Assembly: GCA_028678905.1 (NCBI GenBank)
Contig: JAJRCO010000349.1
Coordinates: forward strand, 1-24,000
Length of the DNA stretch: 24,000 bases
Direction of reading: 5' to 3'
Source of the DNA: Methanomicrobiales archaeon
Lineage (GTDB): Archaea > Halobacteriota > Methanomicrobia > Methanomicrobiales > JACTUA01
The notes below the pieces were generated by a model. That model saw nothing but the letters and a program-made list of their open reading frames with translations. It made no database searches and was not told where the DNA came from. Below, piece by piece: positions 2 to 17,473 of this stretch (position 1 is its first letter; the number at the start of each line of letters is the position of its first letter). A program made the translations under genes and the position numbers.

Positions 2-508
2 AGGAGCCCCTACCAGACAGTCTCTATCCCTCTGGGAGGTTTTCAGCTTCCTCTAGATTATCTTATCATCATCATCGTTACTGTCGGTATTATCTGTGGC
101 CTCTATCTGTTTCTGCGAAGAACAACGGTCGGAAGGGCTATCCGGGCAACAAGTCAGAACAGGAGGGGGGCAATGCTCGTAGGCATAGATGTGGAGCGGA
201 TGGATATGATCAGTTTTGGCATCGGTTCCGCTCTTGCTGCAGCGGCGGGAACTCTCTGGGTGGTAAGTGGTCAGGTATTCAATCCATACATCGGATCCAT
301 TCCTGCAATCAAGGCATTTGCTATCGTCATCCTGGGGGGCCTGGGGAGCATCCCCGGGGCTATCATTGCCGGCTTGTTGTACGGTCTTGCTGAAAACGGG
401 GCGGCATATTTCCTTGGCGGAGTCTGGAAGGATTCCATATCCTTTATCATCCTGATTGTTGTCCTCATCATCAGACCTACCGGGTTATTCGGGGAATCGG
501 GGGAGTAG
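2..508 (+). CDS. livH: Branched-chain amino acid ABC transporter permease, LivH/BraD type (5' end lies outside the window)
   Basis: The frame of the 173..508 ORF stays open back to base 2 with no stop, so the gene runs off the left edge. The translation ...LRRTTVGRAIRATSQNRRGAMLVGIDVERMDMISFGIGSALAAAAG...IIRPTGLFGE is a typical C-terminal half of LivH-family permeases. Stop TAG at 506-508. Confidence 0.85.
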   Translation, partial: RSPYQTVSIPLGGFQLPLDYLIIIIVTVGIICGLYLFLRRTTVGRAIRATSQNRRGAMLVGIDVERMDMISFGIGSALAAAAGTLWVVSGQVFNPYIGSIPAIKAFAIVILGGLGSIPGAIIAGLLYGLAENGAAYFLGGVWKDSISFIILIVVLIIRPTGLFGESGE

Positions 509-512
509 CTCG

Positions 513-1496
513 ATGCATTGGGAATCATTTCGACGGTTTGTGCTCCCTTTCATCTTTATCCTGGCGCTGGGAATACCCCTCCTTATAGGGGTGAATTTTT
601 TTCTCCTCAATATCCTGATCCTGATGCTCGTCTTCATCATATTTTCTTCTGCATGGAACCTGCTGACCTACTCAGGACAGGCGTCACTGGGTCATGCCGC
701 TTTTTTTGGGATCGGTGGATATGTCTCAACATTGCTGGTGGTGAAAATGGGAGTTCCTATCCAGGCAGGTATTGTTCTCAGTGGTTGTATCGCAGCAGCG
801 ATGGGATTATTCATCGGCATCACCTGTGTACGACTCAAGGAATGGTTTCTTGCTATGGTTACCTTCGGGTTTGCGATTATTACTGAGACCCTGATCGCCA
901 GCCCTCTGGCAGCATTTACGGGCGGCTGGGATGGATTGGGAACGCCGCATCTGATCAGTCATGAAATTCCCGGCTATATCGTCTTTGAATATTATCTGAT
1001 TCTTGCGGTTACTCTTGCTACCCTCATCGGCATCCATTACATACTAAAGTCACGGGCCGGTCTCGCATTTGCCGCGATCCGTGAAAATGAAGTAGAGGCA
1101 AGAGCAGCTGGCGTGGATCCGGTCAAGTATAAACTTCTGGCATTCACTATCAGCACATTTATTGCAGGAATCGCCGGAGCCCTGGAGATACATTACGTGG
1201 GATATATTACCCCAGAAATTTTCAGCCCACAGATCTCGTTCTGGCCCGTCACCTACTCCATCTTAGGGGGACTGGGGAATCTGTGGGGACCGGTGATAGG
1301 TACCGTCGTCCTCACCATCTTCTGGGAAGGCCTGAAAACGATCGGACTTACCTATGAACGATTCATTATCATCGGATTAATCCTCATCCTTTCCGTGATC
1401 TTCCTGCCGAAGGGGCTAATCTCCTTCCCCGAGGAGCTCAGGAAGAAAGTGAGGAAATATAAACATAAATCGCCTGATACCAGAAGTGACGTATAA
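513..1496 (+). CDS. livM: Branched-chain amino acid ABC transporter permease, LivM/BraE type
   Basis: ATG at 513 lies 4 nt after the livH stop and is preceded by GGGGGAG. The protein is multi-TM and hydrophobic, with GQASLGHAAFFGIGGY and AIRENEVEARAAGVD motifs characteristic of LivM. The 456 start in the ORF track would overlap livH and adds a non-hydrophobic leader, so 513 is preferred. Confidence 0.85.
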   Translation: MHWESFRRFVLPFIFILALGIPLLIGVNFFLLNILILMLVFIIFSSAWNLLTYSGQASLGHAAFFGIGGYVSTLLVVKMGVPIQAGIVLSGCIAAAMGLFIGITCVRLKEWFLAMVTFGFAIITETLIASPLAAFTGGWDGLGTPHLISHEIPGYIVFEYYLILAVTLATLIGIHYILKSRAGLAFAAIRENEVEARAAGVDPVKYKLLAFTISTFIAGIAGALEIHYVGYITPEIFSPQISFWPVTYSILGGLGNLWGPVIGTVVLTIFWEGLKTIGLTYERFIIIGLILILSVIFLPKGLISFPEELRKKVRKYKHKSPDTRSDV

Positions 1497-1510
1497 TTAC
1501 ATCAAATTGT

Positions 1511-1527
1511 TCTGATCTTTTTTCAGA
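1511..1527 (+). terminator. Short inverted repeat TCTGA-N7-TCAGA containing a T6 tract (1518-1523) between convergent livM and livF
   Basis: Read directly from the 26-nt convergent spacer. The stem is only 5 bp and overlaps the livF stop codon (1523-1525). The oligo-T fits archaeal-type termination of the + strand unit. Confidence 0.3.
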
Positions 1528-2218
1528 TTCCGAGGTATGCCCGTTGCACATGTTCATTGTGGTATAACTCCTTCGTCTTCCCCTCGAGAATTATCCTTCC
1601 ATTCTCCATAACATACCCTCTCTGGCAGAGATCGAGGGCATTCCGTATATTCTGTTCAAGAAGAAGGATGGTCATTCCTTCTCTACCAAGACGTTCCAGT
1701 GAACGAAAAACCTGACCAATTAAGAGAGGAGATAGACCGGTAGAGGGTTCATCAAGAACCAGTATCTTAGGGTTTGACATGAGTGCCCGACCTATCGCCA
1801 GCATCTGTTGCTCCCCGCCACTCAGTGTCCCCGCAAGCTGAATCTCCCGTTCCTTAAGAATAGGAAAGAGCGAGTGAATATCCTCCAGATCTTCCTCCCA
1901 GCCCGACCTGTCACCCTTACCCAGCCTCAGGTTTTCTAGCACTGTCATTTTAGGGAATATCTCTCGTTTTTCCGGTACCAGAGCAAGCCCCTTGCGGAAG
2001 ATCGCATGCGGGGGCAGCCCACGTATATTCTCTTCCAGGAAGTTGATGGTTCCCTCCACTTTGGGAATGAATCCAAAAATGCTCTCCACAAATGTAGTCT
2101 TTCCCGCTCCATTTGGTCCCAGAAGGGCTACAATCTCCCCCTTATCGATTCGCAGGTTGAGATCCCAGAGTATCTGGAGATTGCTTCGAAAGACATTCAG
2201 TCGTTCAATTTCCAGCAT
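1523..2218 (-). CDS. livF: Branched-chain amino acid ABC transporter ATP-binding protein, LivF type
   Basis: Walker A GPNGAGKTT, signature LSGGEQQMLAIGRAL, Walker B ILVLDEPSTGLSP and the C-terminal H..V..AYLG ending typical of LivF. Starts 11 nt after the livG stop. Confidence 0.9.
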   Translation of the reverse strand: MLEIERLNVFRSNLQILWDLNLRIDKGEIVALLGPNGAGKTTFVESIFGFIPKVEGTINFLEENIRGLPPHAIFRKGLALVPEKREIFPKMTVLENLRLGKGDRSGWEEDLEDIHSLFPILKEREIQLAGTLSGGEQQMLAIGRALMSNPKILVLDEPSTGLSPLLIGQVFRSLERLGREGMTILLLEQNIRNALDLCQRGYVMENGRIILEGKTKELYHNEHVQRAYLGI

Positions 2219-2229
2219 GTGGAGAATTC

Positions 2230-2958
2230 CTAGAATGCATCTATGTCGCCAAGATAGGTATCAATAACTCGCTGGTTGTTCATTACCTCGTAAGGTCTTC
2301 CTTCAGCAATTTTCTCGCCATGATCCAGAACCACAATCTTATCAGAAACGCCCGTGATGACCCGCATCACATGTTCGATGATGAGGATTGATATCCCTGC
2401 TTCCCGGATTTTCCGAATTAATTCGATTGCATCATTGCTCTCTTTTGGGGTCAGACCGGTGGTCAATTCATCCAATAAAAGGAGTTTTGGTTTGGAAGCG
2501 AGAGCACGAGCAAGCTGCACTCTTTTTAACTCCACCACGTTTAAGTTGCGGATCAGCATCTCCTGCTTTTCTTTCGCAACTCCAACAAAATCGAGGAGTT
2601 TTTCCGCTGCCTTCCTTCCCTCATCAAGGCTGACCGAGTGTGAATTCCCAAAGATTGCACCCACCATGACACTTTCATTTGCTGTCAATTCGGGGAAGAG
2701 ATGGGCATGCTGAAAGGTTTTGGCAATTCCCTTCCTACATATCTGCTCAGGTTTCCAGCCAGTGATATTCTCTCCCTTAAAGGTGATACGTCCTTGGGTA
2801 GGATGTGATAGCCCGGAGATAATGTTGAGGAGAGTGGTCTTTCCTGCGCCGTTTGGACCAACAAGACCAACGATCTTACCCTCTCCCACCATCAGATCGA
2901 CCCGATTTACGGCTAAAAGCCCTCCTATCTGTTTAGTTACTCCGGTGACCTCGAGCAT
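2230..2958 (-). CDS. livG: Branched-chain amino acid ABC transporter ATP-binding protein, LivG type
   Basis: Walker A GPNGAGKTT, Q-loop, Walker B LLLLDELTTGLTP, H-loop IIEHVM and the LivG-type ending VIDTYLG. Start set at ATG 2958 (MLEVTGVTKQIGG...), the usual LivG N-terminus. The 21-codon upstream extension in the ORF track is not family-like. Confidence 0.9.
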   Translation of the reverse strand: MLEVTGVTKQIGGLLAVNRVDLMVGEGKIVGLVGPNGAGKTTLLNIISGLSHPTQGRITFKGENITGWKPEQICRKGIAKTFQHAHLFPELTANESVMVGAIFGNSHSVSLDEGRKAAEKLLDFVGVAKEKQEMLIRNLNVVELKRVQLARALASKPKLLLLDELTTGLTPKESNDAIELIRKIREAGISILIIEHVMRVITGVSDKIVVLDHGEKIAEGRPYEVMNNQRVIDTYLGDIDAF

Positions 2959-2998
2959 TGTTACTCTGTCATTGATAGCACGGCTATTATTAGTATGG

Positions 2999-3010
2999 AA
3001 AAATATTAAA
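2999..3010 (-). promoter_or_regulatory. TATA-like box (minus strand TTTAATATTTTT) about 45 nt upstream of the livG start
   Basis: An AT-rich element in an AT-rich spacer between cooC and livG. This suggests livGF has its own promoter and is not simply the tail of the acs operon. Confidence 0.3.
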
Positions 3011-3167
3011 CGTATGGTCACTGCACGACAGTGTTAAATCGGATGGTAAATAGTCTCAGGAACATCGCACGTAGCGATCGGTTCGATTTCAACATATTTC
3101 ACATAATCTAATCGGAAATACTGCTCACGTTAAACATATGTCACTACCATGAATTTGGCTGGTCGAG

Positions 3168-3950
3168 TCACTCCTTCGACCCACTGCCTTTACACATTTC
3201 CCTGAGTTTCTCACTGATGTCCTGAACTGCCTTTTGCGCAAGACTCTTTTTTCCTATCTCTGCCAGAGGCGACCCCCTGATATCCGCGTCCTCCACGGCC
3301 GAATCTTCAGGAATGATCCCGAGCAATGGCAGGGTACTCCCCTCTGCCCTGTCTCCATCCGGTTTCACGCGGTTGAACACCAGATAGATCCGGTCTTGCT
3401 GAATCCCGATGGAAACGGCGAGATCCCGTATCCGTTCCGCTGTCCGCACTCCCCGGGCCGAGGGATCGCTCACCACCAGCAGCAGATCAGGCTGCCCGAC
3501 CGTCCTCCGGCTGATATGCTCCATCCCCGCTTCACTGTCCACCACCACCCAGCGGTACTCCTTCTCCAGGAGTTCCATTGCTGCGGACAGGAGCGTGTTG
3601 GCGAAACAGTAGCATCCCAGACCTTCCGGCCGGCCCATTGCCACCAGATCGAAGCCCTTCGACTCCACGAGCACCTGCCGGAACCGCAGCGCGATGTAGT
3701 CCTTGCGGGACATACCGGGAGGAATACTCCGGGTGAACGCATCCTCCCGCATGCCTCCGAGAGATTCTCTCATCGTTAACCCCAGCGCCTCATGGAGATT
3801 GGCATTGGGATCCGCATCCACCGCAAGAACGGGTGTTTCCTGCGCATCGACCAGTGCAGTGACCAGCAGGGCAGCAAGAGTGGTCTTTCCCGTCCCTCCT
3901 TTCCCGGATATCGCAATCCGGCAGGTCTTCAGAGGAACGCCTCCCTGCAT
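3168..3950 (-). CDS. cooC: CooC/AcsF-type Ni-insertion accessory ATPase (MinD/ParA-like P-loop NTPase)
   Basis: Deviant Walker A GKGGTGKTT near the N-terminus, and a CxC metal motif in EGLGCYCFAN as in CooC proteins. Last gene of the acs operon. Its ATG at 3950 overlaps the preceding gene by 22 nt. Confidence 0.85.
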   Translation of the reverse strand: MQGGVPLKTCRIAISGKGGTGKTTLAALLVTALVDAQETPVLAVDADPNANLHEALGLTMRESLGGMREDAFTRSIPPGMSRKDYIALRFRQVLVESKGFDLVAMGRPEGLGCYCFANTLLSAAMELLEKEYRWVVVDSEAGMEHISRRTVGQPDLLLVVSDPSARGVRTAERIRDLAVSIGIQQDRIYLVFNRVKPDGDRAEGSTLPLLGIIPEDSAVEDADIRGSPLAEIGKKSLAQKAVQDISEKLREMCKGSGSKE

Positions 3951-4963
3951 CGTTTAGCCAGAGCTGCCGTGGCCGCCAGAATCTCTTCTGCCATACCCTC
4001 ATCACCAAACTGGATACCACAGGTGGGGGTGATAAGAGACTGGCGATCGATTATTTCCGTATCGATATACTCCCCCAAGCGTGAGCGGATGGTGGTGATT
4101 CGCGCACACAGGGACTCGATAGACTCTCCCCGGAACACCGCATAATCGACCGGCACGATCCCCCAGGCGATGACACCCCCTTTTTCCAGGTAGGTCGCGA
4201 TCGCCTCACTATAGAGAAGGAACTCTCGGGCGAGGAGATAGGTGTCAAAAGAAAGGACCGCCGGTTCCAGGGCGAGAAGGAATTCCCAGTCGGTATTGGC
4301 ACAGCAGTGGATTCCGTATCCGTCTTCGAGCAGCGAGGCCGCATCGATGAGAGCGCCTGCCACGGCCTCTCGATCGAGGGGAACTACCGAGGATCCAAGA
4401 GAGGTGAGGTACGGTTCGTTGAACACTACCAGAGACGATCCGGCTGTGGTATGGCGATGAATTTCCTGTTCACACCACCGGGCCTGTAAGCCCAGGAGCT
4501 TTCCCAAGATATCTGCATACTGCATGTCATAAAAGATCGGCCGCTTGTCGCAATCGGTAACCTGCATCCCGAACGTCACCGGACCGGTCACCTGACACTT
4601 CAGCACCCGGGGATGATCGGGGGGATGCGCTAGCATTTCATAAAACGCCGAGGCATACTCCGGGCCGGTTCCGTACGAAGATGCATTGCCTTCCAGGAAA
4701 TCATGGTAGATCTGTTCGAGAGCGGAGGAGCAATCTTTCCGGGTGTCGACGAACAACCGCTCTCCGACCAGCGTTCTGCCCGGGAGGTGTGCGGAATTGT
4801 TGAACACGATCCTTTCCTGAAGCCCCCGACAGGGCAACGTGGGGACAAAGGGGAACTGAGGGAAGAGGGAAGAAGCTAGGCGCCAGGCTGCTGCGGGGTC
4901 GGTATGGGGGAGAGCCCCTATACCGGTGGCCAGGTATTTGGGAGGAGAGATCATCCGGGGCAT
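3929..4963 (-). CDS. MetE-fold (cobalamin-independent methionine synthase C-terminal domain-like) Zn-thiol methyltransferase-like protein, about 344 aa
   Basis: Collinear MetE-like blocks are present: ATGIGALPHT (cf. TTIGSFPQT), VTGPVTF (cf. LTGPVT), VVFNEPYL (cf. IQIDEPAL), IHCC (His/Cys codons 4301-4309; cf. H-x-C Zn ligands), LSFD (acidic ligand position, 4244-4246) and ITPTCGIQ (Cys codon 4019-4021; cf. NPDCGLK). Start chosen at ATG 4963, with GAGG 7 nt upstream and 2 nt after the RACo stop. ATG 4969 (ATGA overlap) or 4990 are alternatives. Confidence 0.65.
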   Translation of the reverse strand: MPRMISPPKYLATGIGALPHTDPAAAWRLASSLFPQFPFVPTLPCRGLQERIVFNNSAHLPGRTLVGERLFVDTRKDCSSALEQIYHDFLEGNASSYGTGPEYASAFYEMLAHPPDHPRVLKCQVTGPVTFGMQVTDCDKRPIFYDMQYADILGKLLGLQARWCEQEIHRHTTAGSSLVVFNEPYLTSLGSSVVPLDREAVAGALIDAASLLEDGYGIHCCANTDWEFLLALEPAVLSFDTYLLAREFLLYSEAIATYLEKGGVIAWGIVPVDYAVFRGESIESLCARITTIRSRLGEYIDTEIIDRQSLITPTCGIQFGDEGMAEEILAATAALAKRCREAFL

Positions 4964-4965
4964 GG

Positions 4966-6870
4966 TCATTCCTCTTTTCGTAACCGGCATTCAGCAAGCA
5001 TCTTTTCCACGGTAGGAAACAGGGACAGATCGGTGTGGGGAAGGAAACAGCTGGAGGTATACCGGTCCATGAACGTAGGGTCGGCATTCAGCTCGATATA
5101 CGCGATCTCGTGGGCGATGGTGTCCAGAGCGTTGCGCCGGTCCCGGTTGATAAGCGCGATGTTTGCTCCGGCGAGCGCCCCGTTGCCGATGGTCTCGATC
5201 CGATCTACCGGCACTTCTGGGATCAGACCGATGGTGATTGCGTTCAGCCGGTTCAGGTAGTTTCCAAACGCCCCGGCGAGATAGATCATCCCGATGTCGT
5301 CTTTATTGATCCCTGCCGCATCCATCAATGTGTAGCAGGCCGCAAGGATGGCAGCCTTGCTCATGATCAGGTTCTGGATATCATTCTCGGTGATGACGAT
5401 GTCTTTTCCGATCTCGGTATCATCTTTAGGCACCACCACGAATTCCGGGTAATACTCCCCTTGTCGAATACGGGGATTGGAGGAGGTGATGTCCAGTCGT
5501 CCGGTCCGGTCGATGAAACAGCTCCGCAGCAGCTCGGCCAGAAGATCGATCATCCCCGATCCGCAGATACCCCGGGGTTTGATCTGATTGATGGTCTCAT
5601 AATGGACCTGGAAAGGCCTGGTCTCGATGCGCACTTTCTCGATCGCACCTGGATTCGCCCGCATACCAAACAATACTTCGGCTCCTTCCAGCGCCGGCCC
5701 GGCCGCTCCGGCACAAGAGAACATCCAGTCCTTGTTTCCGAGCACTACCTCAAAGTTTGTTCCCATGTCCACGAGGAGGGAGACATCTTCCCGTTCGCCC
5801 ATTCCGCAGGTGAGGATATCTCCGACGACATCCCCACCGATAAAGTTCGAAACGGAAGGGAAGAAATACACACCCGCGGTGCGGTGTGCATCGAGGGAGA
5901 GATGCTCCGCCGTGGTATAAATGGATCGGCGGACTACCGGCACGTACGGTTCCGCAATCATGTATTCCGGATCGATCCCCAGGAGCAGGTGAGTCATGAC
6001 CGTATTTCCGGCGATCTCCAGTTCGAAAATATCATCCATATCGATCTTTGCCATGTTACAGGCGCTGTGAAGCGCCCGGTTGATGCTCTCCGCCGCGAGC
6101 TGCTGGAGGCGGGCCAGACCGCTTTTCCGGGCATAATTTACCCGAGAGAGGATGTCTTCACCAGTACCGATCTGACGATTATAGTTGGACGCCACGGCCA
6201 GGATAGCTCCATCGATCAGGCTGCGCACGGTGACCACGATGGTTGTGGTTCCCAGATCCACCGCCGCCCCATACAGCCGGGCCTGGGTGTCTCCTCCCTC
6301 TATATGGATGAGACGGTATCCCCCTGGCACGATCGCCACCGTTGCGGTTACCATCCAGTTATTTTCCCGCAGTGTGCGCGAAAGCTCACGAAGGATGGGG
6401 AGAGGGGCAAAGATCTTACGCACTGATGGCCCTCCCTGTTTTTCTATCCGCCACAGGAGCCGGGTGAGATCGGGAGAAGGATCCTCCAGGGTGGGTGGAC
6501 TCATCTCCACGTAATATTTGGTCACCGATGGAAGAACAGGAACATCTGCCGCTTTGCTTTCCATCAGAATCTTTTGTTCCTGGATGAGCGTGCTCTCCGG
6601 GATTTCGACATAAAGATCTCCCAGCACCAGGGTTTTGCAGGCGAGGCTTGCCCCCCGTTCGAGCTCCTCAGGAGTAAAGAACAGGGCGTATTTCTCCCGG
6701 TCAAACTCTGTCTCTCCGCTCTGGCGGTAGATCACGCATTTGCCACACTTCCCCTGTCCCCCGCAGACCACGTTCAGGTTCAGGTTCGCTTTCTGGGCCG
6801 CTTCTAGAACAGTGGTTCCTCTCTCAACCTCGACCTTTCGGTAACTGGGGAGAAATGTGACCACCGGCAT
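4966..6870 (-). CDS. RACo-type ATP-dependent reductive activator of corrinoid proteins (N-terminal 2Fe-2S ferredoxin domain plus ASKHA ATPase domain)
   Basis: The N-terminus has a plant-type ferredoxin cysteine pattern, VVCGGQGKCGKCV...SLACKT. This is followed by a long ASKHA-like body (AVDLGTTTIV..., VDMGTNFEVV, ICGSGMIDLL, IYLAGAFGNY). Size of 634 aa and the position next to acsC match corrinoid activators found in acs clusters. Confidence 0.85.
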   Translation of the reverse strand: MPVVTFLPSYRKVEVERGTTVLEAAQKANLNLNVVCGGQGKCGKCVIYRQSGETEFDREKYALFFTPEELERGASLACKTLVLGDLYVEIPESTLIQEQKILMESKAADVPVLPSVTKYYVEMSPPTLEDPSPDLTRLLWRIEKQGGPSVRKIFAPLPILRELSRTLRENNWMVTATVAIVPGGYRLIHIEGGDTQARLYGAAVDLGTTTIVVTVRSLIDGAILAVASNYNRQIGTGEDILSRVNYARKSGLARLQQLAAESINRALHSACNMAKIDMDDIFELEIAGNTVMTHLLLGIDPEYMIAEPYVPVVRRSIYTTAEHLSLDAHRTAGVYFFPSVSNFIGGDVVGDILTCGMGEREDVSLLVDMGTNFEVVLGNKDWMFSCAGAAGPALEGAEVLFGMRANPGAIEKVRIETRPFQVHYETINQIKPRGICGSGMIDLLAELLRSCFIDRTGRLDITSSNPRIRQGEYYPEFVVVPKDDTEIGKDIVITENDIQNLIMSKAAILAACYTLMDAAGINKDDIGMIYLAGAFGNYLNRLNAITIGLIPEVPVDRIETIGNGALAGANIALINRDRRNALDTIAHEIAYIELNADPTFMDRYTSSCFLPHTDLSLFPTVEKMLAECRLRKEE

Positions 6871-6873
6871 GAG

Positions 6874-8205
6874 TTATCCCATCTCCTTCTCCAGAAATTC
6901 AGGTAGGTCGGCGGCATCACGGGGTCCGACCATTACCTTCCAGCCGGTCATTTCCTCAACCCGGCCAGAGATGGGCGCCGCGTACCCGGGCAGCACAAGT
7001 GTGCGATGGCTTACTGCCTCTTCCGCTCCGAACTTTTTCAGTGATTCTCGGACCAGCGTCTCGTTCAATTTGCCCGCAGCCACCGCGGTCAGCACCGAGA
7101 GGCCTTCTGTATCCACCACCAGAAGATGGCAGGGGATCTTCGCTCCTTCGAGATATCCCAGAACAGTGAAATAGGTAAGGGAAAAATTTACTGTGATCAG
7201 GAGAGGTGACTCCCTGCCGGGACTGTTCACCGGGTATAGGCCTGGTGCCATCTGGATCGGCTTCTGAGGGTCGGTATAGATGTTCTGGCGGAGAGTGAGA
7301 AAGGCAAGTTTCCGGGAATACTCCAGGGGCCGGGTCACGATCAACGATCCGTACTTCAGGACGCCCAGCGCACAGGCAGCGTCCGGATCCGGATATGTGG
7401 TCGTGTCACAGTAGACCGGGTACCCGACCGCAGGCACCGTGCGTTCGATGGCCGCTTTTCGGATCTGGGTAGACAGGGCGAGGAACTCGCGGGGTGTGGT
7501 CGCTGCGGGATCCATCACCAGATCCTCCACCCCTTCCTGTACGCACTTTGTAGTAAGGTTGGCGAGGCCCTCCACTGATCCTGCGCGGACGGTGAGAGGA
7601 CATCCGAATTTCGTGGCGAGCCGGCAGAAAGAGGTATAATTTGCGTCTGTCGCCGCACAGAGGAGAGGGCGATAGGTTCCGCATTCGATGAGGCCAGCTT
7701 CGAGCACTTCAGGATGATCGGAGATCAGAATTTCCGGAAGGCTCACCATCTCTTCGATCGCGGCGACGGTCTTCTGGAACGTATCCGCGGCACCGGATAC
7801 ATTCCGGATGGCCACCCCGGATAGAAAGAGATCCTGACCCACCCGGGTGAACATCTCGTTCTCGATCTGCGCCGCAACGACCTTCACCTGTCCAGGGGAC
7901 CAGGTATCGGGAATCTCCACCATCAGGCCGGGGGGATGGTAGAAGGTCTTGTCATGCCGGAACAGGACCGTTTCTTCCCCTACCACCACCTTGCGGGGTC
8001 CCACCCCGATGCGCACCAGGCGGATAGGAGGTCGCGTGGCCGCTCCCAGTTTCTGCCGGGTCTCCTCATCAAGGTAGGGGCAGGTCGCGGGGTCTGCCTT
8101 ACCGGATGCAATCTTCATGGCAAACGCGAGACAGGTCGGGAAACCACATTCCTTGCAGTTCTTCTTGGGCAGGATCTTGTAGATATCCAGGGCTTTGAGC
8201 GCCAT
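6874..8205 (-). CDS. acsC: Corrinoid iron-sulfur protein large subunit (AcsC / CdhE gamma-type)
   Basis: N-terminal 4Fe-4S motif CKECGFPTCLAFAMKIASGKADPATC (C-x2-C-x4-C-x16-C). Length of 443 aa matches AcsC. Start set at ATG 8205, 1 nt after the acsD stop TAA (8207-8209), with GGGAGAAGGG upstream. The 8232 start in the track would overlap acsD. Confidence 0.9.
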   Translation of the reverse strand: MALKALDIYKILPKKNCKECGFPTCLAFAMKIASGKADPATCPYLDEETRQKLGAATRPPIRLVRIGVGPRKVVVGEETVLFRHDKTFYHPPGLMVEIPDTWSPGQVKVVAAQIENEMFTRVGQDLFLSGVAIRNVSGAADTFQKTVAAIEEMVSLPEILISDHPEVLEAGLIECGTYRPLLCAATDANYTSFCRLATKFGCPLTVRAGSVEGLANLTTKCVQEGVEDLVMDPAATTPREFLALSTQIRKAAIERTVPAVGYPVYCDTTTYPDPDAACALGVLKYGSLIVTRPLEYSRKLAFLTLRQNIYTDPQKPIQMAPGLYPVNSPGRESPLLITVNFSLTYFTVLGYLEGAKIPCHLLVVDTEGLSVLTAVAAGKLNETLVRESLKKFGAEEAVSHRTLVLPGYAAPISGRVEEMTGWKVMVGPRDAADLPEFLEKEMG

Positions 8206-8206
8206 T

Positions 8207-9130
8207 TTACCCTTCTCCCGCCAGATGCGCAAATCCTTTTTTCAATTTTTCCAGGGTGCGGGGATGACGCACACACACGATCTCCGCTCCGGCAACGGCT
8301 GCAGAGAATGCAGCGCAGAACTCCCACATCACCGCTGTTTCGTCCCGAACCTCCTGCGGGGCCTCCCGGACCTCCTTTATATTCAGAGAATCCGCCGCTG
8401 CACTGATCATGGGCATGGCCAGATCCGTATCTCCTTTCAGGGCGGCGGTGCGGATCCGCTCCATTACAGAATAAGAGTACTCAAAGCCGTACCCAAGCGC
8501 GCCAGTGAATGGGTCGATCACGATACGGTCATGGGGCATCCCGATCTCGTGGAGAAGGATGTTGAGTTGTTTCGCCAAGTTAATATCGATCGGTGATTGT
8601 GCGATAACCCCATGGCCGAATGCCACCGCCGCTGCGGCCACGCTGCGGTAGCGATCCGCTTCCGCGGTGCCGAGGAGCGCCCGTTCTCCCGCCGCCGCCT
8701 CTCCACAGGCAGAGAAGACCTCGCTATCCACAGAGGGCTCATTGCTCCCTTCGATAATGAGAGGAAGACCAGTTCCCTGGAGAACCGCCTCGATGGTGGT
8801 CCGCACCCCTCGAACATCTGAAAAGCCTCGTTTTCTGGTGCTGGTGAGATGAAGACGCACCAGATCTGCCCCGAATTCCTTTTCTGCCTTTTTCGCCCAC
8901 TCTCCCGCATCCCTGGTAACATCTCCTGTATAGGCCAGCACAATGGGCGACCAGCTACCAGTATCATCACAGATCTCCAGGGCGATAAGGGGCATTTCGC
9001 TCGCACCCTCCAGGAAAGGAAGATTCTTCGCTCCCCCCACCGTGCAGACGCGACTGCGAGTTCCTCCTTCCTGCTTTGTTGCACCGATATGCACTCGATC
9101 GATCTCCCCGCTCCAAGTCATCGGCTCCAA
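8207..9130 (-). CDS. acsD: Corrinoid iron-sulfur protein small subunit (AcsD / CdhD delta-type, short bacterial-length form)
   Basis: The N-terminus VHIGATKQEGGTRSRVCTVGG resembles the AcsD N-terminal block (LGATK..GGTRSH...VGG), followed by a TIM-barrel-like body. The start is ambiguous: TTG at 9130 (GGAG 8 nt upstream, overlapping the acsB stop) or ATG at 9121. Confidence 0.85.
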   Translation of the reverse strand: MEPMTWSGEIDRVHIGATKQEGGTRSRVCTVGGAKNLPFLEGASEMPLIALEICDDTGSWSPIVLAYTGDVTRDAGEWAKKAEKEFGADLVRLHLTSTRKRGFSDVRGVRTTIEAVLQGTGLPLIIEGSNEPSVDSEVFSACGEAAAGERALLGTAEADRYRSVAAAAVAFGHGVIAQSPIDINLAKQLNILLHEIGMPHDRIVIDPFTGALGYGFEYSYSVMERIRTAALKGDTDLAMPMISAAADSLNIKEVREAPQEVRDETAVMWEFCAAFSAAVAGAEIVCVRHPRTLEKLKKGFAHLAGEG

Positions 9131-9141
9131 ACCTATCTCTC

Positions 9142-11172
9142 CTACAGCAGCGGTGTCATGTTCAGCACCGGGTGCCGAACTTTTTCCAAATAGGTGGCCA
9201 GCTGTTCCAGGGTCGTGGCGATCTTCTCGTCGCCGATCTTATCGTACAGGTCACCCAGCCCCTCTTTCTGGAGCTCCTTGCGGAGGCGCTCCCCGATCTC
9301 CTCCTTCACCTGACTGGGGAGCCACACCAGCCGTTTATGCCCATCCTCCGCCTGAAAGAAACGTTCGCTGGCGATAAAGAGCTTGGAGATTCCCGCAAAT
9401 CCCGGGGTCTGGGCTCCACCCCCGATTGTCCCGGCCAGGGTGGAGAAACTCATTCCGCAGGGAGTGTCTCCCCGGTAATCCCTGTTCACTACCATGATCC
9501 CGTTCACCTCTGGCAGCACAACCGCGATGCATTCAAAGCAGCCACAGCAGGTCATGGGGGCATCCACCAGACTGTACAGGGAGCAGCGTTCGACCTCACC
9601 ATGCGAGGCTTTGCGTACAAACCGGTTCACCCCTTCAAACTCTCCCCGCCTAGCATCGATCAGGGGACCTTTCTTGACCGGCTGGTTTGCCCCCGCAGGG
9701 GAGATTTCATAGGCCGTCCTGCCATCCAGCCAGGATATGGCGCCACAGAGGGCCAGACGCTGGGGGGTGATGATGCAGACGTGATTTGGCGCGAACGTCT
9801 GGCAGAGGGTACAGGAATAAAAGATGTCCACATCCTCATCTTTCATCCCGGCAATGCGGGCGTCCCTCTCCTCATACACCTGTTCCGCGGCCTTCATGGC
9901 CTCCCTGACCTTTCCCTCTTCGGTGATCAGCGTAACCTGGACCGCGTCCAGGAGCTCTGGAAAGTCCATCCGGAATTTTGCCGCGATCAGTTTCCCCAGA
10001 TGTACGATGCGCAGCCCCTGGGCAACGGACTCCTTGGAAAACCGGACCCAGATCAGGTTTCTCTGGGCTACATGCCAGGTCCCTTCCCCGTAATTGACAA
10101 AATTGTGGATCCTTCTTTCCAGAACCGGTTCGAACTCTTTTTTCATCCGGGTACCAGCCACTTCCACGATGACTCCCAGGGGAACCGCAGATCCTTCCTT
10201 AACCTCCTCGATCTCCGGCCCGATCACCGTGACCTTTCCGTCCTCCACCGTGTCCGTGGGCCGCATCTGCAGTATCTCAAAAGCCGGGGAACGTCCTCCA
10301 CCGAATTCCACATACATCTCCTCCTTGCGGATGCTTTTGCCTTCAAAGGCAGGGGAGCAGTGCATGGGTACGGCGACCGTGGTGACCTGCACCTTGATCC
10401 TCTTGAGCTCCATACCCTTTGGTACCGCCTCAGCCACGGAGACTGGTATCCACTCACCTCCTTCGTACCCACCTCCCACGGACAGGATTGGGATACCGAG
10501 GACCCGCATCGCATCGATGAAGGCGATCTCCTCATCGGTGAGATCCGGGAAGGCGATCACAAAGGCCTTCGCCCGCTCCTGCGCATAGGCGACCAGCCTT
10601 CCTGCGTCCCCCGGTGTCACTCCTCCGAACATCAGAGCTACCCGGGCGATGATATCCACGAAATGCACGGCCGACAGGGCATCCGGCCCCAGAGGTACGA
10701 GCCGGTAGTCGACCCCAACCTTTACCCGTTCCTGTTCGAGGGCTGAGATATTTTCTCCGGTGAGGAAGGTGAGCATATACTTCTCCTGCAGCTCCCGGCA
10801 GAGACCCGCCACCATATCTCCCCGGGGAGCCTTCCCCACCAGCAGGGCAAGCCCTAAAATGCTTCCATCAACCAGGGAGTACCCCAGTTTTCGCAGGTAC
10901 GCATCAGGGATAAAACCGGTATACGGGAGTTCCGGTTTTTTTTGTCCTTCCCTGGCCGCGACTAGCGATTCCACTGCGATCAGCACGTTATTCTGAGACC
11001 GGGCGAATGCATCCTGGGCGCTCGCACCATCGCGTACTGCTGTTCCGGTCAGGGCATACGCAATAGGCAGCTGGTATGCGGTCTCTTCGTAGGAAAAACT
11101 ACCTGCCAGCCGTGCCAGATTCTCTTTGAGCACTGTATTTCCCGTCTGTACTGCCTGGTCGATCAGGGCCAT
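9142..11172 (-). CDS. acsB: Acetyl-CoA synthase catalytic subunit (A-cluster), long AcsB-type with an N-terminal domain
   Basis: The A-cluster ligand pattern is conserved: FYSCTLCQTFAPNHVCIITPQRLALCGAISWLD (four Cys) and PMTCCGCFEC, with Cys-Gly-Cys codons at 9538-9546. The spacing is the same as Moorella AcsB Cys506/509/518/528 and Cys595-Gly-Cys597 as I recall them (constant offset of 52). The 676-aa length includes about 250-300 N-terminal residues that archaeal CdhC lacks. GGAGG lies 7 nt upstream of ATG 11172. Confidence 0.95.
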   Translation of the reverse strand: MALIDQAVQTGNTVLKENLARLAGSFSYEETAYQLPIAYALTGTAVRDGASAQDAFARSQNNVLIAVESLVAAREGQKKPELPYTGFIPDAYLRKLGYSLVDGSILGLALLVGKAPRGDMVAGLCRELQEKYMLTFLTGENISALEQERVKVGVDYRLVPLGPDALSAVHFVDIIARVALMFGGVTPGDAGRLVAYAQERAKAFVIAFPDLTDEEIAFIDAMRVLGIPILSVGGGYEGGEWIPVSVAEAVPKGMELKRIKVQVTTVAVPMHCSPAFEGKSIRKEEMYVEFGGGRSPAFEILQMRPTDTVEDGKVTVIGPEIEEVKEGSAVPLGVIVEVAGTRMKKEFEPVLERRIHNFVNYGEGTWHVAQRNLIWVRFSKESVAQGLRIVHLGKLIAAKFRMDFPELLDAVQVTLITEEGKVREAMKAAEQVYEERDARIAGMKDEDVDIFYSCTLCQTFAPNHVCIITPQRLALCGAISWLDGRTAYEISPAGANQPVKKGPLIDARRGEFEGVNRFVRKASHGEVERCSLYSLVDAPMTCCGCFECIAVVLPEVNGIMVVNRDYRGDTPCGMSFSTLAGTIGGGAQTPGFAGISKLFIASERFFQAEDGHKRLVWLPSQVKEEIGERLRKELQKEGLGDLYDKIGDEKIATTLEQLATYLEKVRHPVLNMTPLL

Positions 11173-11363: not shown

Positions 11364-12680
11364 ATGGAACCCCTCGTCACAGTTCGCCCTCCGGGTCCCC
11401 GTGCTCAGGAGATACTGCAGCGGGATGCGGCGGTCGTCTCTCAGTCCATGGTCCGGGAATACCCCCTGGTAATCCAGCGGGCCCGGGGGATGAATATCTG
11501 GGATGTAGACGGTAACCGGTATCTGGATTTCACCGCGGGTATCGCGGTGATGAACCTCGGCTGGAACCATCCCCGGATCGTGGAGGCAGTGGTGGAGCAG
11601 TTTCCTCTCCTCTCCCACGGAGCGTTCCTTGATTTTTGTTCGGAGATACCCCTCCGCTTTGCCGAAGAACTGGTTGCACGCCTGCCTGAAAATCTCTGCC
11701 GGGTATATTATTCGAACTCCGGAGCAGAGACCCTCGAAGCCGCACTGAAACTCGCCCGACAGCACACGAAGCGGCCGTATTTCCTCGCCTTCTACGGGGG
11801 GTTCCATGGCAGAACATATGGGGCTATGAGTCTCACCGCCGCGAAAGTGATCCAGCGCAAGTATTTCGGTCCCTTTTTACCGGTGATCCATGCTCCCTTC
11901 CCCGATCCCTACCATCCGTTCGGGGGAGATCCGGCGACCTGCGCAGAGGAGGTCGTTTCCTATATCAGGGAAGAGATCTTCAGACGGGAGGTTTCGCCCC
12001 AGGAAGTGGCAGCGATCGTCGTAGAACCCATCCAGGGAGAAGGGGGATACATTGTGCCGCCGGACTCTTTCCTCCCTCTGTTGCGGGAACTGTGCGATGA
12101 ACACGAGATTCTTCTTGTCGTCGATGAGGTACAGGCAGGATGCTTCCGCACCGGGCGGTTCCTTGCCTCTGAACACACGCATACCATTCCGGACATCGTC
12201 TGCCTGTCCAAGGCTCTGGCGGGAGGGTTGCCCTTGGGAGTTACCGTCTCCTGCGATGAGGTGATGACGTGGCCTCCCGGTTCTCATGCCAGTACCTTTG
12301 GTGGTAACAGTGCAGCTTGTGCGGCCGGGTGTGCGGTGCTTAAACTCCTGCACGAACCAGGTTTCGGTGACCACGTGGAGGAAATGGGCGAGTATCTGCG
12401 GAAGAAGCTGCGGACCCTGCAGAAAGAGCATCCGATCATTGGGGACATCCGCGGGAAAGGCCTGATGACCGGCATCGAACTGGTTAAGGATCGGGAGGGC
12501 AGGAAACCGGCACAGGAAGAGAGAAAAATCATCCTTGCCTCGGCCTTCGAGGCAGGATTGACCCTACTTCCTGCAGGTGAATCTGTTATCCGGTTCTGTC
12601 CACCGCTCATTCTCGAACGAAGACATGTCGATATCGGCATCAGCATCCTCGATCGCATCCTGGAGGGAAAGGGATTCTGA
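11364..12680 (+). CDS. Class-III PLP-dependent aminotransferase (4-aminobutyrate / ornithine / acetylornithine aminotransferase family)
   Basis: Family blocks YLDFTAGIAVMNLGWNHP, SGAETLEAALKLAR, LLVVDEVQAGCFRTGRF, and the PLP-lysine block DIVCLSKALAGGLPLG. Length 438 aa. Confidence 0.85.
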   Translation: MEPLVTVRPPGPRAQEILQRDAAVVSQSMVREYPLVIQRARGMNIWDVDGNRYLDFTAGIAVMNLGWNHPRIVEAVVEQFPLLSHGAFLDFCSEIPLRFAEELVARLPENLCRVYYSNSGAETLEAALKLARQHTKRPYFLAFYGGFHGRTYGAMSLTAAKVIQRKYFGPFLPVIHAPFPDPYHPFGGDPATCAEEVVSYIREEIFRREVSPQEVAAIVVEPIQGEGGYIVPPDSFLPLLRELCDEHEILLVVDEVQAGCFRTGRFLASEHTHTIPDIVCLSKALAGGLPLGVTVSCDEVMTWPPGSHASTFGGNSAACAAGCAVLKLLHEPGFGDHVEEMGEYLRKKLRTLQKEHPIIGDIRGKGLMTGIELVKDREGRKPAQEERKIILASAFEAGLTLLPAGESVIRFCPPLILERRHVDIGISILDRILEGKGF

Positions 12681-12692
12681 GGAGGAGAGTTG

Positions 12693-16034: not shown

Positions 16035-16035
16035 T

Positions 16036-16839: not shown

Positions 16840-16873
16840 GTGAACAGGATGTACACGCGATACACTATCATTG

Positions 16874-16881
16874 TTATTTAG
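16874..16881 (-). promoter_or_regulatory. TATA-like element (minus strand CTAAATAA) about 35-40 nt upstream of the wHTH-FHA start
   Basis: This is the only AT-rich block upstream of ATG 16839. No Shine-Dalgarno sequence lies in the short predicted leader. Confidence 0.3.
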
Positions 16882-16882
16882 G

Positions 16883-16921
16883 TGGTACCAGTCGGTCCCA
16901 AAGCGGGATTGCCTGGTCCCA
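16883..16921. promoter_or_regulatory. Three copies of a TGGT(A/C)CCA-like motif between the two divergent TATA-like boxes
   Basis: TGGTACCA (16883-16890, a perfect 8-bp palindrome), cGGTCCCA (16893-16900) and TGGTCCCA (16914-16921). The last two are 21 nt apart. Confidence 0.3.
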
Positions 16922-16945
16922 CGGTGGAAGTGGGGCCATTTGCTG

Positions 16946-16954
16946 AATATAAAT
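16946..16954 (+). promoter_or_regulatory. TATA-like box AATATAAAT upstream of the small secreted protein gene
   Basis: Lies about 70 nt upstream of ATG 17020, which predicts a leader of about 45 nt. That leader contains a direct repeat ATGTGCATC (16980-16988 and 16995-17003) and GAGAGG 9-10 nt before the ATG. Confidence 0.35.
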
Positions 16955-17019
16955 GCGGAAGGAGCCGAGTGATTGTGTGATGTGCATCGGGAGAATGTGC
17001 ATCAGAGAGGAAACACGAA

Positions 17020-17457: not shown

Positions 17458-17467
17458 TTAAACCCTA

Positions 17468-17473
17468 TTTTTT
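17468..17473 (+). terminator. T6 tract 10 nt after the secreted protein stop codon
   Basis: The sequence is taattaaaccctaTTTTTTgtg, directly downstream of TAA 17455-17457. Confidence 0.4.

What the first reader, a model, noticed from the sequence alone, without database searches (positions are those of the whole stretch)
3929..4963. MetE-fold Zn methyltransferase-like gene in the position normally held by the corrinoid methyltransferase
The only methyltransferase candidate in the acs operon is a protein of about 344 aa with the collinear blocks of the MetE catalytic domain. A complete putative Zn-ligand set is present: His-Cys(-Cys) at 4301-4309, Asp at 4244-4246 and Cys in TPTCG at 4019-4021. 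It sits between the corrinoid activator and cooC and is start/stop-coupled on both sides.

Short 'core' MetE homologues that take the methyl group from methylcob(III)alamin rather than methyl-folate have, as far as I recall, been described for Dehalococcoides and Methanothermobacter. Placement inside a CoFeSP/ACS operon suggests a direct methyl relay between the methylated corrinoid Fe-S protein and a thiol. The acceptor could be homocysteine (giving methionine) or another thiol. The reverse direction is also possible, with a methylthiol donating the methyl group for acetyl-CoA synthesis. Either route would link acetyl-CoA and thiol methylation without a pterin.
Basis: partly seen in the sequence, partly recalled or inferred. 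Interest (0 to 1): 0.75.

Follow-up and report, generated by a model that had tools for sequence, protein, structure and literature searches.

The report
MesB-type core methionine synthase in acs operon
The gene is real and encodes a small zinc, MetE-fold methyltransferase of the published "MesB/core-MetE" family, sitting in a CO-dehydrogenase-less acetyl-CoA synthase/corrinoid-protein operon of a methanogen; this link was already predicted in 2020-2021, but this archaeal branch has lost two residues that normally hold homocysteine.

Summary
Window 3929-4963 (- strand) is a 344-aa ORF in the order acsB-acsD-acsC-RACo(acsV)-X-cooC, and the proposed Zn ligands (H219/C221, D240, C315) sit at the stated coordinates. 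Pfam and NCBIfam give no significant hit. An AlphaFold model (pLDDT 86.8) matches MetE best. A family profile aligns to E. coli MetE with H219/C221 at the H641/C643 HxC motif, D240=E665, C315=C726 and N182=D599.

X is 35% identical (206 bits) to Dehalococcoidales proteins that NCBI names methionine synthase. It has the H-x-C/D/C pattern and spacing published for the characterised D. mccartyi core-MetE (MesB).

The six-gene order is kept in every Methanomicrobiales locus long enough to show it, and in 4 bacterial loci. Deobald 2020 and Price 2021 already proposed that MesB takes methyl groups from CoFeSP, and noted mesB-acsCD operons in methanogens.

One new point: the archaeal clade replaces the homocysteine-binding Ser433 and Asp599 equivalents (A17, N182), which about 95% of bacterial members keep. 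These organisms also carry MesA. The thiol substrate, and possibly the direction of transfer, is therefore open.

The parts
3929..4963 (-). X: 344-aa MesB/core-MetE-family Zn methyltransferase (archaeal clade)
   Evidence: ORF and translation. More than 1400 homologues. AF2 pLDDT 86.8. MetE-fold top hits. hhalign to E. coli MetE 546-752. 206 bits to a Dehalococcoidales 'methionine synthase'.
4301..4309 (-). H219-C220-C221: HxC Zn-ligand motif, equivalent to MetE H641/C643 and cbdbA481 H215/C217
   Evidence: PMC7005905.
4244..4246 (-). D240: Zn ligand equivalent to MetE E665. It is Asp, as in D. mccartyi MesB D236.
   Evidence: PMC7005905, PMC7857596.
4019..4021 (-). C315 in TPTCG: Zn ligand equivalent to MetE C726 and cbdbA481 C312
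4913..4915 (-). A17, at the position of the homocysteine-carboxylate-binding Ser (MetE S433). It is Ala or Gly in 119/119 close archaeal homologues and Ser in about 93% of the other family members.
   Evidence: Motif ATGIGALPH versus MetE TTIGSFPQT. Counts.
4418..4420 (-). N182 in NEPY, at the position of the homocysteine-amine-binding Asp (MetE D599). It is Asn in 118/119 close archaeal homologues and Asp in about 97% of the others.
   Evidence: hhalign. Counts.
4966..6870 (-). RACo/AcsV, the reductive activator of the corrinoid Fe-S protein (2Fe-2S domain plus ASKHA ATPase)
   Evidence: Pfam RACo_C_ter 5e-100, Raco_middle, RACo_linker and Fer2. NCBIfam AcsV 2e-164.
6874..8232 (-). acsC (cdhE-like), the large CoFeSP subunit. 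The true start is probably the ATG 27 nt downstream of the TTG.
   Evidence: Pfam CdhD 1.7e-97 plus FeS. NF003195 536.7 bits from residue 10.
8207..9130 (-). acsD, the small CoFeSP subunit, of the short bacterial type (307 aa)
   Evidence: Pfam CdhD 7e-40. NF003376 338 bits.
9142..11172 (-). acsB, a bacterial-type acetyl-CoA synthase (676 aa) with no CODH partner in the operon
   Evidence: Pfam ACS_CODH_B_C 3.9e-114 and CdhC 1.4e-63. NF040764 887 bits.
3168..3950 (-). cooC/acsF-type P-loop Ni-insertion ATPase. Its start overlaps the end of X by 22 nt.
   Evidence: Pfam CbiA 2.8e-17. Conserved directly after X in all archaeal loci where the contig continues past X.

Best explanation
X is a member of the MesB (core-MetE) family. 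It is a single (beta/alpha)8 barrel homologous to the catalytic C-terminal half of MetE. It binds one Zn through His219, Cys221, Asp240 and Cys315 and uses it to activate a thiol.

Proposed pathway (every step inferred):
1. The CODH-less AcsB cleaves acetyl-CoA, made from assimilated acetate, and passes the methyl group to Co(I) of the AcsCD corrinoid Fe-S protein. CO is released.
2. X docks on methyl-Co(III)-CoFeSP and transfers the methyl group to its Zn-bound thiolate. The most likely acceptor is L-homocysteine, giving methionine.
3. RACo re-reduces accidentally oxidised Co(II) at the cost of ATP.
4. CooC matures the Ni site of AcsB.

What is shown here: fold, ligand set, family relationship and operon conservation. 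What is inferred from the D. mccartyi work and from comparative genomics: CoFeSP as the donor, homocysteine as the acceptor, and the direction of transfer. The family and chemistry assignment (a corrinoid-dependent Zn thiol methyltransferase) is much firmer, at about 0.85, than the identity of the thiol.
For: - Fold: MetE structures are the top Foldseek hits (1xpg, 1xdj, 4ztx; E about 1e-7), then MesD 3rpd. The model has pLDDT 86.8 and pTM 0.88.
- Residue equivalences: the profile aligns to E. coli MetE with H219/C221 at the H641/C643 HxC motif (hhalign itself pairs H219 with H639; the ligand register is read by eye), D240=E665, C315=C726 and N182=D599.
- Weak direct hits: 9 of 66 family members hit Pfam Meth_synt_2 directly, best E 2.5e-5.
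- Link to named methionine synthases: 35% identity, 206 bits, E 2e-68 over the full length to P0362, which NCBI names 'methionine synthase [Dehalococcoidales bacterium]'. JGI names many relatives 'methionine synthase II'.
- Match to the characterised enzyme: Dehalococcoidales members have the exact H122/H215/C217/D236/C312 spacing published for cbdbA481 (PMC7005905). That enzyme is 343 aa, uses Asp as its fourth ligand, and methylates homocysteine from methylcobalamin (PMC7005905).
- Synteny: 29 of 37 archaeal loci show acsB-acsD-acsC-RACo-X-cooC in the same order; 7 of the other 8 are cut by contig ends and one (L037) shows RACo-X-cooC but no acsC hit in the 1.5 kb upstream. Four bacterial loci carry the same module with no CODH or acsE nearby.
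- Literature: Price 2021 found that all 123 proteomes with MesB contain AcsC or AcsD, found mesB-acsCD operons in methanogens, and found MesB in 6 of 12 Methanomicrobiales (PMC7857596).
Against: - No experiment has shown methyl transfer from CoFeSP to any MesB. Only free methylcobalamin was tested, with a Km of about 240 uM (PMC7005905).
- In this archaeal clade the equivalents of MetE Ser433 and Asp599, which bind the carboxylate and amine of homocysteine, are Ala/Gly and Asn. Three further positions that are highly conserved in bacteria also differ (Q42T, M52I, G123C).
- All 12 Methanomicrobiales proteomes analysed by Price already carry MesA. A hydrogenotrophic methanogen is rich in methyl-H4MPT. 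A second, acetyl-CoA-fed methionine synthase therefore looks redundant.
- I could not compare X directly with the cbdbA481/DET0516 sequence.
- Absence of CODH elsewhere in this genome could not be checked.
Confidence: 0.55

Rival explanations
1. Same chemistry but a different thiol, and possibly the reverse direction. After the bacterial module entered Methanomicrobiales, X was retuned to a thiol that is not an amino acid, for example coenzyme M or methanethiol. It would then link CoFeSP to the methyl-thiol pool. One direction is acetyl-CoA methyl to methyl-S-R. The other is methyl-S-R to CoFeSP to acetyl-CoA, with CO supplied from elsewhere. In either case X would replace the missing, THF-specific AcsE in an H4MPT organism.
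For: - Replacements at both homocysteine-binding positions are nearly fixed in the clade. Position 17 is A/G with no Ser in 119 sequences, and position 182 is Asn in 118 of 119. This contrasts with Ser at 93% and Asp at 97% elsewhere.
- Asp to Asn removes the negative charge that pairs with the substrate ammonium group.
- Zn ligands and 45 other positions stay conserved, so the enzyme remains under selection.
- MesA is present in all 12 Methanomicrobiales analysed, so methionine synthesis is already covered.
- The operon has no AcsE and no CODH.
Against: - Positions 17 and 182 are not strictly fixed within archaea. L012 and L055 have Ser and Asp, L037 and L014 have Ser and Asn, and L015 has Ser and Ser. 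This fits tolerance as well as it fits a new specificity.
- MesA and MesC, which are accepted methionine synthases, tolerate Gln for the amine-binding Glu484 (PMC7857596), so an amide may suffice.
- The backbone amide at position 17 could still bind a carboxylate.
- No clade-wide gain of a basic residue for a sulfonate was found. R63 and R293 are gained only among the closer relatives.
- Methyl transfer from a thioether to Co(I) is thermodynamically uphill (general knowledge of the MT2 and Mtr reactions).
Confidence: 0.22
2. X is a functional analogue of AcsE. It would be a methyl-pterin (methyl-H4MPT or methyl-THF):CoFeSP methyltransferase that loads the corrinoid for acetyl-CoA synthesis.
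For: - X occupies the operon slot where acetogens have acsE.
- The MetE barrel contributes part of the methyl-folate site in canonical MetE (established knowledge).
- The short bacterial-type AcsD (307 aa) is of the kind that depends on a separate methyltransferase (general knowledge; not tested here).
Against: - The full Zn-thiolate site is invariant, and it has no role in pterin-to-cobalt transfer.
- There is no MetE N-terminal folate-binding domain.
- There is no similarity to Pterin_bind or MtrH, and DHPS-type folds score only TM 0.26.
- The characterised MesB does not use methyl-THF (PMC7005905).
- The same module occurs in both THF-using bacteria and H4MPT-using archaea.
- No CODH is nearby to supply CO.
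Confidence: 0.05
3. X belongs to the UroD-family MT2 methyltransferases (MtaA/MtbA-like methylcobamide:CoM methyltransferases) rather than to the MetE family.
For: - MT2 enzymes have the same H-x-C...C Zn motif and a TIM barrel.
- UroD structures appear among the Foldseek hits at E 2.5e-4 to 5e-3 and TM about 0.53.
- 3 of 66 relatives give weak URO-D Pfam hits.
Against: - MetE hits are about 1000-fold better in Foldseek.
- More relatives hit Meth_synt_2 (9 versus 3), and one passes its gathering score.
- hhalign reproduces the four MetE ligand positions and the DEP motif (H219 offset by two residues, see full report).
- The target has no URO-D hit.
Confidence: 0.03

Closest known systems
MesB / core-MetE of Dehalococcoides mccartyi CBDB1 (cbdbA481 = DET0516 orthologue; Deobald 2020 PMC7005905; Price 2021 PMC7857596)
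   Same: - About 343-344 aa, a single MetE-type barrel with no folate-binding domain.
- Zn set His-x-Cys / Asp / Cys with the same spacing.
- 35% identity to Dehalococcoidales orthologues.
- The genome encodes a CODH-less AcsB plus AcsCD and lacks AcsE.
- CoFeSP is the proposed methyl donor.
   Different: - Here the gene lies inside the acs operon. The Chloroflexota copies found here stand alone within 8 kb.
- The Ser and Asp that bind homocysteine are replaced by Ala and Asn.
- His122 of the proposed HxxG motif is Gln124 here.
- The host is a methanogen of an order in which all 12 reference proteomes analysed by Price 2021 carry MesA, and it uses H4MPT.
MesA / methylcobalamin:homocysteine methyltransferase of Methanothermobacter (MT-MetE, as cited in PMC7005905 and PMC7857596)
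   Same: A core, folate-independent MetE homologue in methanogens. It uses methylcobalamin in vitro and a corrinoid protein is presumed to be the donor in vivo.
   Different: - MesA is detected by NCBIfam and Pfam methionine-synthase models. X scores only E=0.12 against NF002119.
- MesA is predicted to use MtrA rather than CoFeSP, and it is not acs-linked (PMC7857596).
C-terminal catalytic domain of canonical MetE (E. coli b3829; T. maritima 1XDJ/1XPG)
   Same: Same fold, equivalent Zn ligand positions, the DEP-type motif and the N-terminal T-x-I-G-S-x-P motif region.
   Different: - Only 14-16% identity.
- No N-terminal barrel.
- Asp instead of Glu as the fourth ligand.
- Ala and Asn instead of Ser433 and Asp599.
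- The donor is not methyl-folate.
MT2 methylcobamide:CoM methyltransferases (MtaA/MtbA, UroD family)
   Same: Zn (H-x-C...C) TIM-barrel enzymes that take a methyl group from a corrinoid protein and pass it to a thiol. They work in the way X is proposed to work.
   Different: They form a different branch of the superfamily. The Foldseek match to UroD structures is weaker, and the target has no URO-D profile hit.
AcsE / MeTr (methyl-THF:CoFeSP methyltransferase)
   Same: Same operon slot and same partner protein (CoFeSP).
   Different: Unrelated pterin-binding barrel with no Zn-thiolate site. It is absent from this operon.

Membership tests
MesB (core-MetE, Dehalococcoides type) | Single MetE-catalytic-type barrel of about 340 aa without the N-terminal folate-binding domain | tested here: met
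   344 aa. Foldseek aligns it to MetE and to the core synthase 3rpd. hhalign covers MetE 546-752 only.
MesB (core-MetE, Dehalococcoides type) | Zn ligands His-x-Cys, Asp (in place of MetE Glu665) and Cys ('HCDC') | tested here: met
   H219, C221, D240 and C315. H219, C221 and D240 are invariant and C315 is at least 90% conserved in A2. They are present in 100% of 119 close homologues. Their spacing matches cbdbA481 H215/C217/D236/C312 (PMC7005905).
MesB (core-MetE, Dehalococcoides type) | Sequence similarity to the characterised protein (Price 2021: phmmer score of at least 130 bits to DET0516) | tested here: inconclusive
   The DET0516/cbdbA481 sequence could not be retrieved. By proxy, X scores 206 bits, 35% identity and E 2e-68 against P0362, which NCBI names 'methionine synthase [Dehalococcoidales bacterium]'. 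Price counts MesB in 6 of 12 Methanomicrobiales.
MesB (core-MetE, Dehalococcoides type) | The genome encodes CoFeSP (AcsC/AcsD) | tested here: met
   acsC and acsD are in the same operon. This holds in all archaeal loci long enough to show it.
MesB (core-MetE, Dehalococcoides type) | Homocysteine-binding residues equivalent to MetE Ser433 and Asp599. Price 2021 calls these 'mostly conserved' and uses them as a functional check rather than a strict definition. | tested here: not met
   A17 and N182 in the target. Position 17 is Ala or Gly in 119/119 close homologues, and position 182 is Asn in 118/119. In the rest of the family Ser is at 93% and Asp at 97%.
MesB (core-MetE, Dehalococcoides type) | Methylcobalamin (or methyl-CoFeSP):homocysteine methyltransferase activity | not testable with these tools
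   This needs an enzyme assay.
Canonical MetE / Pfam Meth_synt_2 (PF01717) | Profile hit above the gathering score | tested here: not met
   No hit for the target even at E<=10. Only 9 of 66 relatives hit weakly. P0150 scores 24.2 bits against a cut-off of 21.
Canonical MetE / Pfam Meth_synt_2 (PF01717) | Two-barrel architecture of about 750 aa with an N-terminal folate-binding domain (Meth_synt_1) | tested here: not met
   The protein is 344 aa with no second domain.
UroD-family MT2 methyltransferases (PF01208) | URO-D profile hit, or best structural match to UroD/MtaA | tested here: not met
   No URO-D hit. UroD structures rank below all MetE hits.
AcsE/MeTr (Pterin_bind PF00809) | Pterin-binding DHPS-like barrel | tested here: not met
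   No Pfam or NCBIfam hit. The DHPS fold match has TM 0.26 and E 9e-3.

The most novel reading that the evidence does not exclude
The Methanomicrobiales branch of MesB has been retuned from homocysteine to a thiol that is not an amino acid, most attractively coenzyme M. The horizontally acquired, CODH-less AcsB-CoFeSP-RACo-X-CooC module would then connect acetyl-CoA directly to the methyl-thiol pool of a methanogen without any pterin. This could run as acetyl-CoA methyl to methyl-CoM. It could also run in reverse, as a methyl-thiol-fed route to acetyl-CoA that stands in for the missing AcsE.
Probability: 0.15. Interest if true: 0.8.

Novelty: new member of a known kind. Interest (0 to 1): 0.35.

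Why it matters
If the published prediction is right, this operon is a compact module that takes the methyl group of acetyl-CoA to methionine through the corrinoid Fe-S protein, with no folate or methanopterin. It appears to have moved between bacteria and methanogens.

These proteins are still labelled 'hypothetical' and are invisible to Pfam and NCBIfam, so genome-scale models of Methanoregulaceae miss them. The archaeal clade is also a natural experiment. It keeps the Zn-thiolate machinery but has lost the two side chains that hold homocysteine, in organisms that already have another methionine synthase. Finding its real thiol substrate would show whether CoFeSP feeds more than methionine.

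Tried and rejected
- Direct Pfam and NCBIfam scans of X gave no hit at E<=0.1. At E<=10 only NF002119 'methionine synthase' appeared, at E=0.12.
- Sequence and profile searches of PDB chains found nothing meaningful.
- I tried to get the cbdbA481 sequence from the paper and its supplement and failed. A third-party proxy (P0362) and the published residue numbering were used instead.
- Adam et al. 2018 on CODH/ACS evolution is not held.
- The look-up of encoding contigs has no record of the target, so the rest of the 33-kb contig, and the presence of CODH or MesA in this genome, could not be checked.
- hhalign did not extend into the N-terminal third. A17=Ser433 therefore rests on the T-x-I-G-S-x-P motif and on matching Ser-to-Asp spacing: 165 residues here versus 166 in MesD 3RPD (S22/D188, PMC7857596).
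- I considered and rejected an AcsE analogue, a UroD-family MT2 and a chance ORF (see the rival explanations).
- GC content gives no sign of recent transfer.
- No tRNA or Rfam element is in the window.
- Insertions between acsC and RACo in some Methanoregula loci are unrelated secreted or thioredoxin-like proteins by eye, not extra pathway genes.
Full report
**1. What is in the sequence**

On the minus strand the window carries a tight six-gene cluster:
- acsB, 11172-9142, 676 aa. Pfam ACS_CODH_B_C 3.9e-114; NF040764 887 bits.
- acsD, 9130-8207, 307 aa, the short bacterial type.
- acsC, 8232-6874.
- RACo/AcsV, 6870-4966. RACo_C_ter 5e-100; AcsV model 2e-164.
- The target X, 4963-3929, 344 aa.
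- A CooC-type ATPase, 3950-3168.

No CODH (acsA/cooS) and no AcsE is present. X starts 2 nt after the RACo stop, and its last 22 nt overlap the cooC ATG. X is identical to an NCBI 'hypothetical protein' from a Methanomicrobiales MAG.

**2. Is it MetE-like?**

Standard profiles do not see it. Pfam and NCBIfam give nothing at E<=0.1, and PDB sequence and profile searches find nothing. Three more sensitive lines agree that it is.

(a) An AlphaFold2 model built on 20 homologues is confident (pLDDT 86.8, pTM 0.88). Its best Foldseek matches are MetE structures from T. maritima, N. crassa, C. albicans and S. mutans (E 1.8e-7 to 1e-5, probability 1.0, TM up to 0.61 by query). The core synthase MesD (3rpd) follows, and UroD comes after that.

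(b) A 66-sequence family profile aligns to E. coli MetE 546-752 (hhalign E 5e-5 to 1e-4). It pairs NEPY with IDEP (N182=D599), the HCC with the HTHMC region, SFD with IET (D240=E665) and TPTCG with NPDCG (C315=C726). In the HCC/HTHMC pairing, hhalign itself places H219 opposite H639; H219/C221 = H641/C643 is read from the H-x-C motif.

(c) 9 of 66 relatives hit Pfam Meth_synt_2 directly. One of them, P0150 from a Heimdallarchaeote, scores above the gathering threshold.

The Zn ligands are conserved across a family of 1911 cluster representatives at 50% identity (E<=1e-3). H219, C221 and D240 are invariant, and C220 and C315 are at least 90% conserved.

**3. Which family?**

The closest non-archaeal relatives are Chloroflexota, especially Dehalococcoidia, at 34-39% identity. 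X aligns over its full length with P0362, which NCBI names 'methionine synthase [Dehalococcoidales bacterium]' (35% identity, 206 bits, E 2e-68). JGI labels many members 'methionine synthase II (cobalamin-independent)'.

Deobald et al. 2020 (PMC7005905) characterised the 343-aa D. mccartyi protein cbdbA481. It transfers methyl from methylcob(III)alamin to homocysteine, does not use methyl-THF, and is modelled with Zn ligands His215, Cys217, Asp236 and Cys312 and a His122 'HxxG'. Dehalococcoidales members of my family reproduce this spacing exactly. L070, for example, has 119/212/214/233/309, which is the published set minus 3. Some carry the KGH-x-x-G His. X has the same pattern: Q124, H219, C221, D240 and C315.

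Price et al. 2021 (PMC7857596) named this family MesB. They showed that all 123 proteomes with MesB have AcsC or AcsD. [quoted passage not shown]

Even P0362 has no Pfam or NCBIfam hit. I could not obtain the cbdbA481 sequence for a direct score.

**4. Synteny**

A scan of one genome per GTDB species returned at least 596 relatives, of which the 80 best were kept. All 37 archaeal loci have acs, RACo or cooC genes adjacent to X. These are from Methanoregula, Methanosphaerula, Methanolinea, Methanoculleus, Methanofollis, Methanospirillaceae and others. 29 of them show the complete order acsB-acsD-acsC-RACo-X-cooC; 7 of the other 8 are cut by contig ends, and L037 shows RACo-X-cooC with no acsC hit in its 1.5 kb of upstream sequence.

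Four bacterial loci carry the same six-gene module, with AcsB 45-46% identical in the three loci that include it (L066 is cut within acsC). They are L073 (Deferrimicrobiaceae), L078 ('Deltaproteobacteria'), L066 and L080. In two of them the module is flanked by an ammonium transporter, and in L073 also by DUF166. None has CODH or acsE nearby.

39 bacterial loci, mostly Chloroflexota, have X alone within the fetched flanks. Flanks in the complete Methanosphaerula subterraneus genome also lack CODH. A neighbour-joining tree separates a monophyletic archaeal clade from the bacterial sequences, and the acs-linked bacterial group branches at the base of the bacterial side. GC content does not mark the cluster as recently acquired.

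**5. Mechanism**

The best-supported reading is the published one. X is a Zn-dependent methyl-corrinoid:thiol methyltransferase that unloads methyl-Co(III)-CoFeSP onto homocysteine. The CODH-less AcsB supplies the methyl group by cleaving acetyl-CoA, as proposed for D. mccartyi. RACo and CooC act as maintenance factors.

Shown here: the fold, the ligand set, the family relationship and the operon conservation. Inferred: the donor, the acceptor and the direction.

**6. What does not fit**

Price et al. used MetE Ser433 (which binds the homocysteine carboxylate) and Asp599 (which binds its amine) as functional checks, and found them 'mostly conserved' in MesB. In X these are A17 and N182.
- Among 119 close archaeal homologues, position 17 is Ala in 114 and Gly in 5, never Ser. 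Position 182 is Asn in 118 and Ser in 1, never Asp.
- Among 269 other family members, Ser is at 93% and Asp at 97%.
- Three more positions are highly conserved in both groups but differ between them: Q42T, M52I and G123C. G123C lies next to the residue equivalent to cbdbA481 His122.
- Across GTDB species the archaeal states are not absolute. L055 and L012 keep Ser and Asp, while L037, L014 and L015 are mixed.

Either loosened constraint or a new specificity would fit this pattern. MesA is present in all Methanomicrobiales analysed, and these methanogens have an abundant methyl-H4MPT pool. The acceptor thiol, and even the direction of transfer, therefore remains open for this clade.

The equivalence A17=Ser433 rests on three things. 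The first is the motif T-x-I-G-S-L-P (family) versus T-T-I-G-S-F-P (MetE 429-435). The second is the Ser-to-Asp spacing, 165 residues here versus 166 in MesD 3RPD (S22/D188, PMC7857596). The third is Price's own alignment statement. hhalign did not reach the N-terminus.

**7. Rivals**

- A retuned thiol specificity or reverse direction: about 0.2.
- An AcsE-like pterin methyltransferase is unlikely. The Zn-thiolate site is invariant, there is no pterin-binding similarity, the characterised MesB rejects methyl-THF, and the same module serves both THF and H4MPT organisms.
- UroD-family MT2 membership is rejected on fold ranking and profile evidence.

**8. Novelty and verdict**

The specific protein is unannotated and undetectable by standard profile libraries, so it is a new member of a known kind. 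The clade-specific loss of the homocysteine-binding Ser and Asp is, as far as I could find, not discussed in the papers I could read. It is the one lead worth an experiment. Overall interest is 0.35. For the novel reading, a pterin-free link between acetyl-CoA and a non-homocysteine thiol such as CoM, the probability is about 0.15 and the interest if true is about 0.8.

Noticed in passing
window 3168-11172 (- strand); L073, L078, L066, L080: A bacterial-type acs cluster (fused-type AcsB of 676 aa, short AcsD, RACo, CooC) with no CODH or AcsE sits in a Methanomicrobiales genome. The identical six-gene module occurs in Deferrimicrobiaceae and 'Deltaproteobacteria' MAGs. Two of these loci have an ammonium transporter upstream, and L073 has a DUF166 gene downstream. 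This points to inter-domain transfer of a CODH-less module.
   Followed up: partly
window 4913-4915, 4418-4420; also residues 42, 52 and 123 of X: Five positions are highly conserved in both the archaeal and the bacterial clades of the family but differ between them: S17A, Q42T, M52I, G123C and D182N. Two of them are the MetE homocysteine-binding positions. A few archaeal species (L012, L055, L037, L014, L015) keep or mix the bacterial states.
   Followed up: yes
L005 4924-5949, L010 4759-5757, L007 2811-3950, L037 3535-5308: Some Methanoregula and Methanospirillaceae loci have 1.3-3.3 kb insertions inside the otherwise fixed gene order. L005 and L010 carry a membrane-anchored Cys-rich protein that looks thioredoxin/DsbA-like by eye, between acsC and RACo. 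L007 carries a secreted 380-aa protein. L037 carries two opposite-strand genes between RACo and X. None was scanned against profile libraries.
   Followed up: partly
L032, L038, L044: X, and in L032 also RACo and cooC, is split into two or more ORFs in these MAGs. This is either frameshift sequencing error or pseudogenisation, and I did not resolve which.
   Followed up: no
window 14403-16839 (- strand): A membrane-anchored Ser/Thr protein kinase (Pkinase 1.3e-41, with a long Pro/Thr-rich N-terminal region and TM segments) lies directly downstream of an ArsR-type HTH protein with a C-terminal FHA domain. This looks like a phospho-signalling pair in an archaeon.
   Followed up: partly
window 11364-14261 (+ strand): A class-III aminotransferase (438 aa) and an aldehyde dehydrogenase (523 aa) are transcribed divergently from acsB. 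They look like an omega-amino-acid or semialdehyde catabolic pair. No link to the acs cluster was established, and the flanks are not conserved in other loci.
   Followed up: no
window 16840-18900: This is a stretch of low coding density with a GC dip (0.48 at 18-19 kb) and only small ORFs. They include a 148-aa protein (17571-18017) that looks like the C_GCAxxG_C_C family by eye, a 145-aa secreted protein with repeated MFQHQ motifs (17020-17457), a 48-aa CxxC...CxxC zinc-ribbon ORF (18170-18316, - strand) and an 85-aa ORF (18545-18802). No tRNA or Rfam hit was found.
   Followed up: partly
window 456-3021 and 19732-23671: The remaining genes look ordinary: LivM/LivG/LivF-type branched-chain amino-acid ABC transporter parts, an FMN reductase-like protein with a Cys cluster, an ABC-2 exporter pair, an AAA_21/AAA_15 ATPase and a 2-oxoacid:ferredoxin oxidoreductase beta subunit.
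   Followed up: partly
window 4961-4990: An in-frame upstream ATG at 4990 would add 9 residues (MPVTKRGMT) and overlap the end of RACo. Homologue alignments support the 4963 start.
   Followed up: yes
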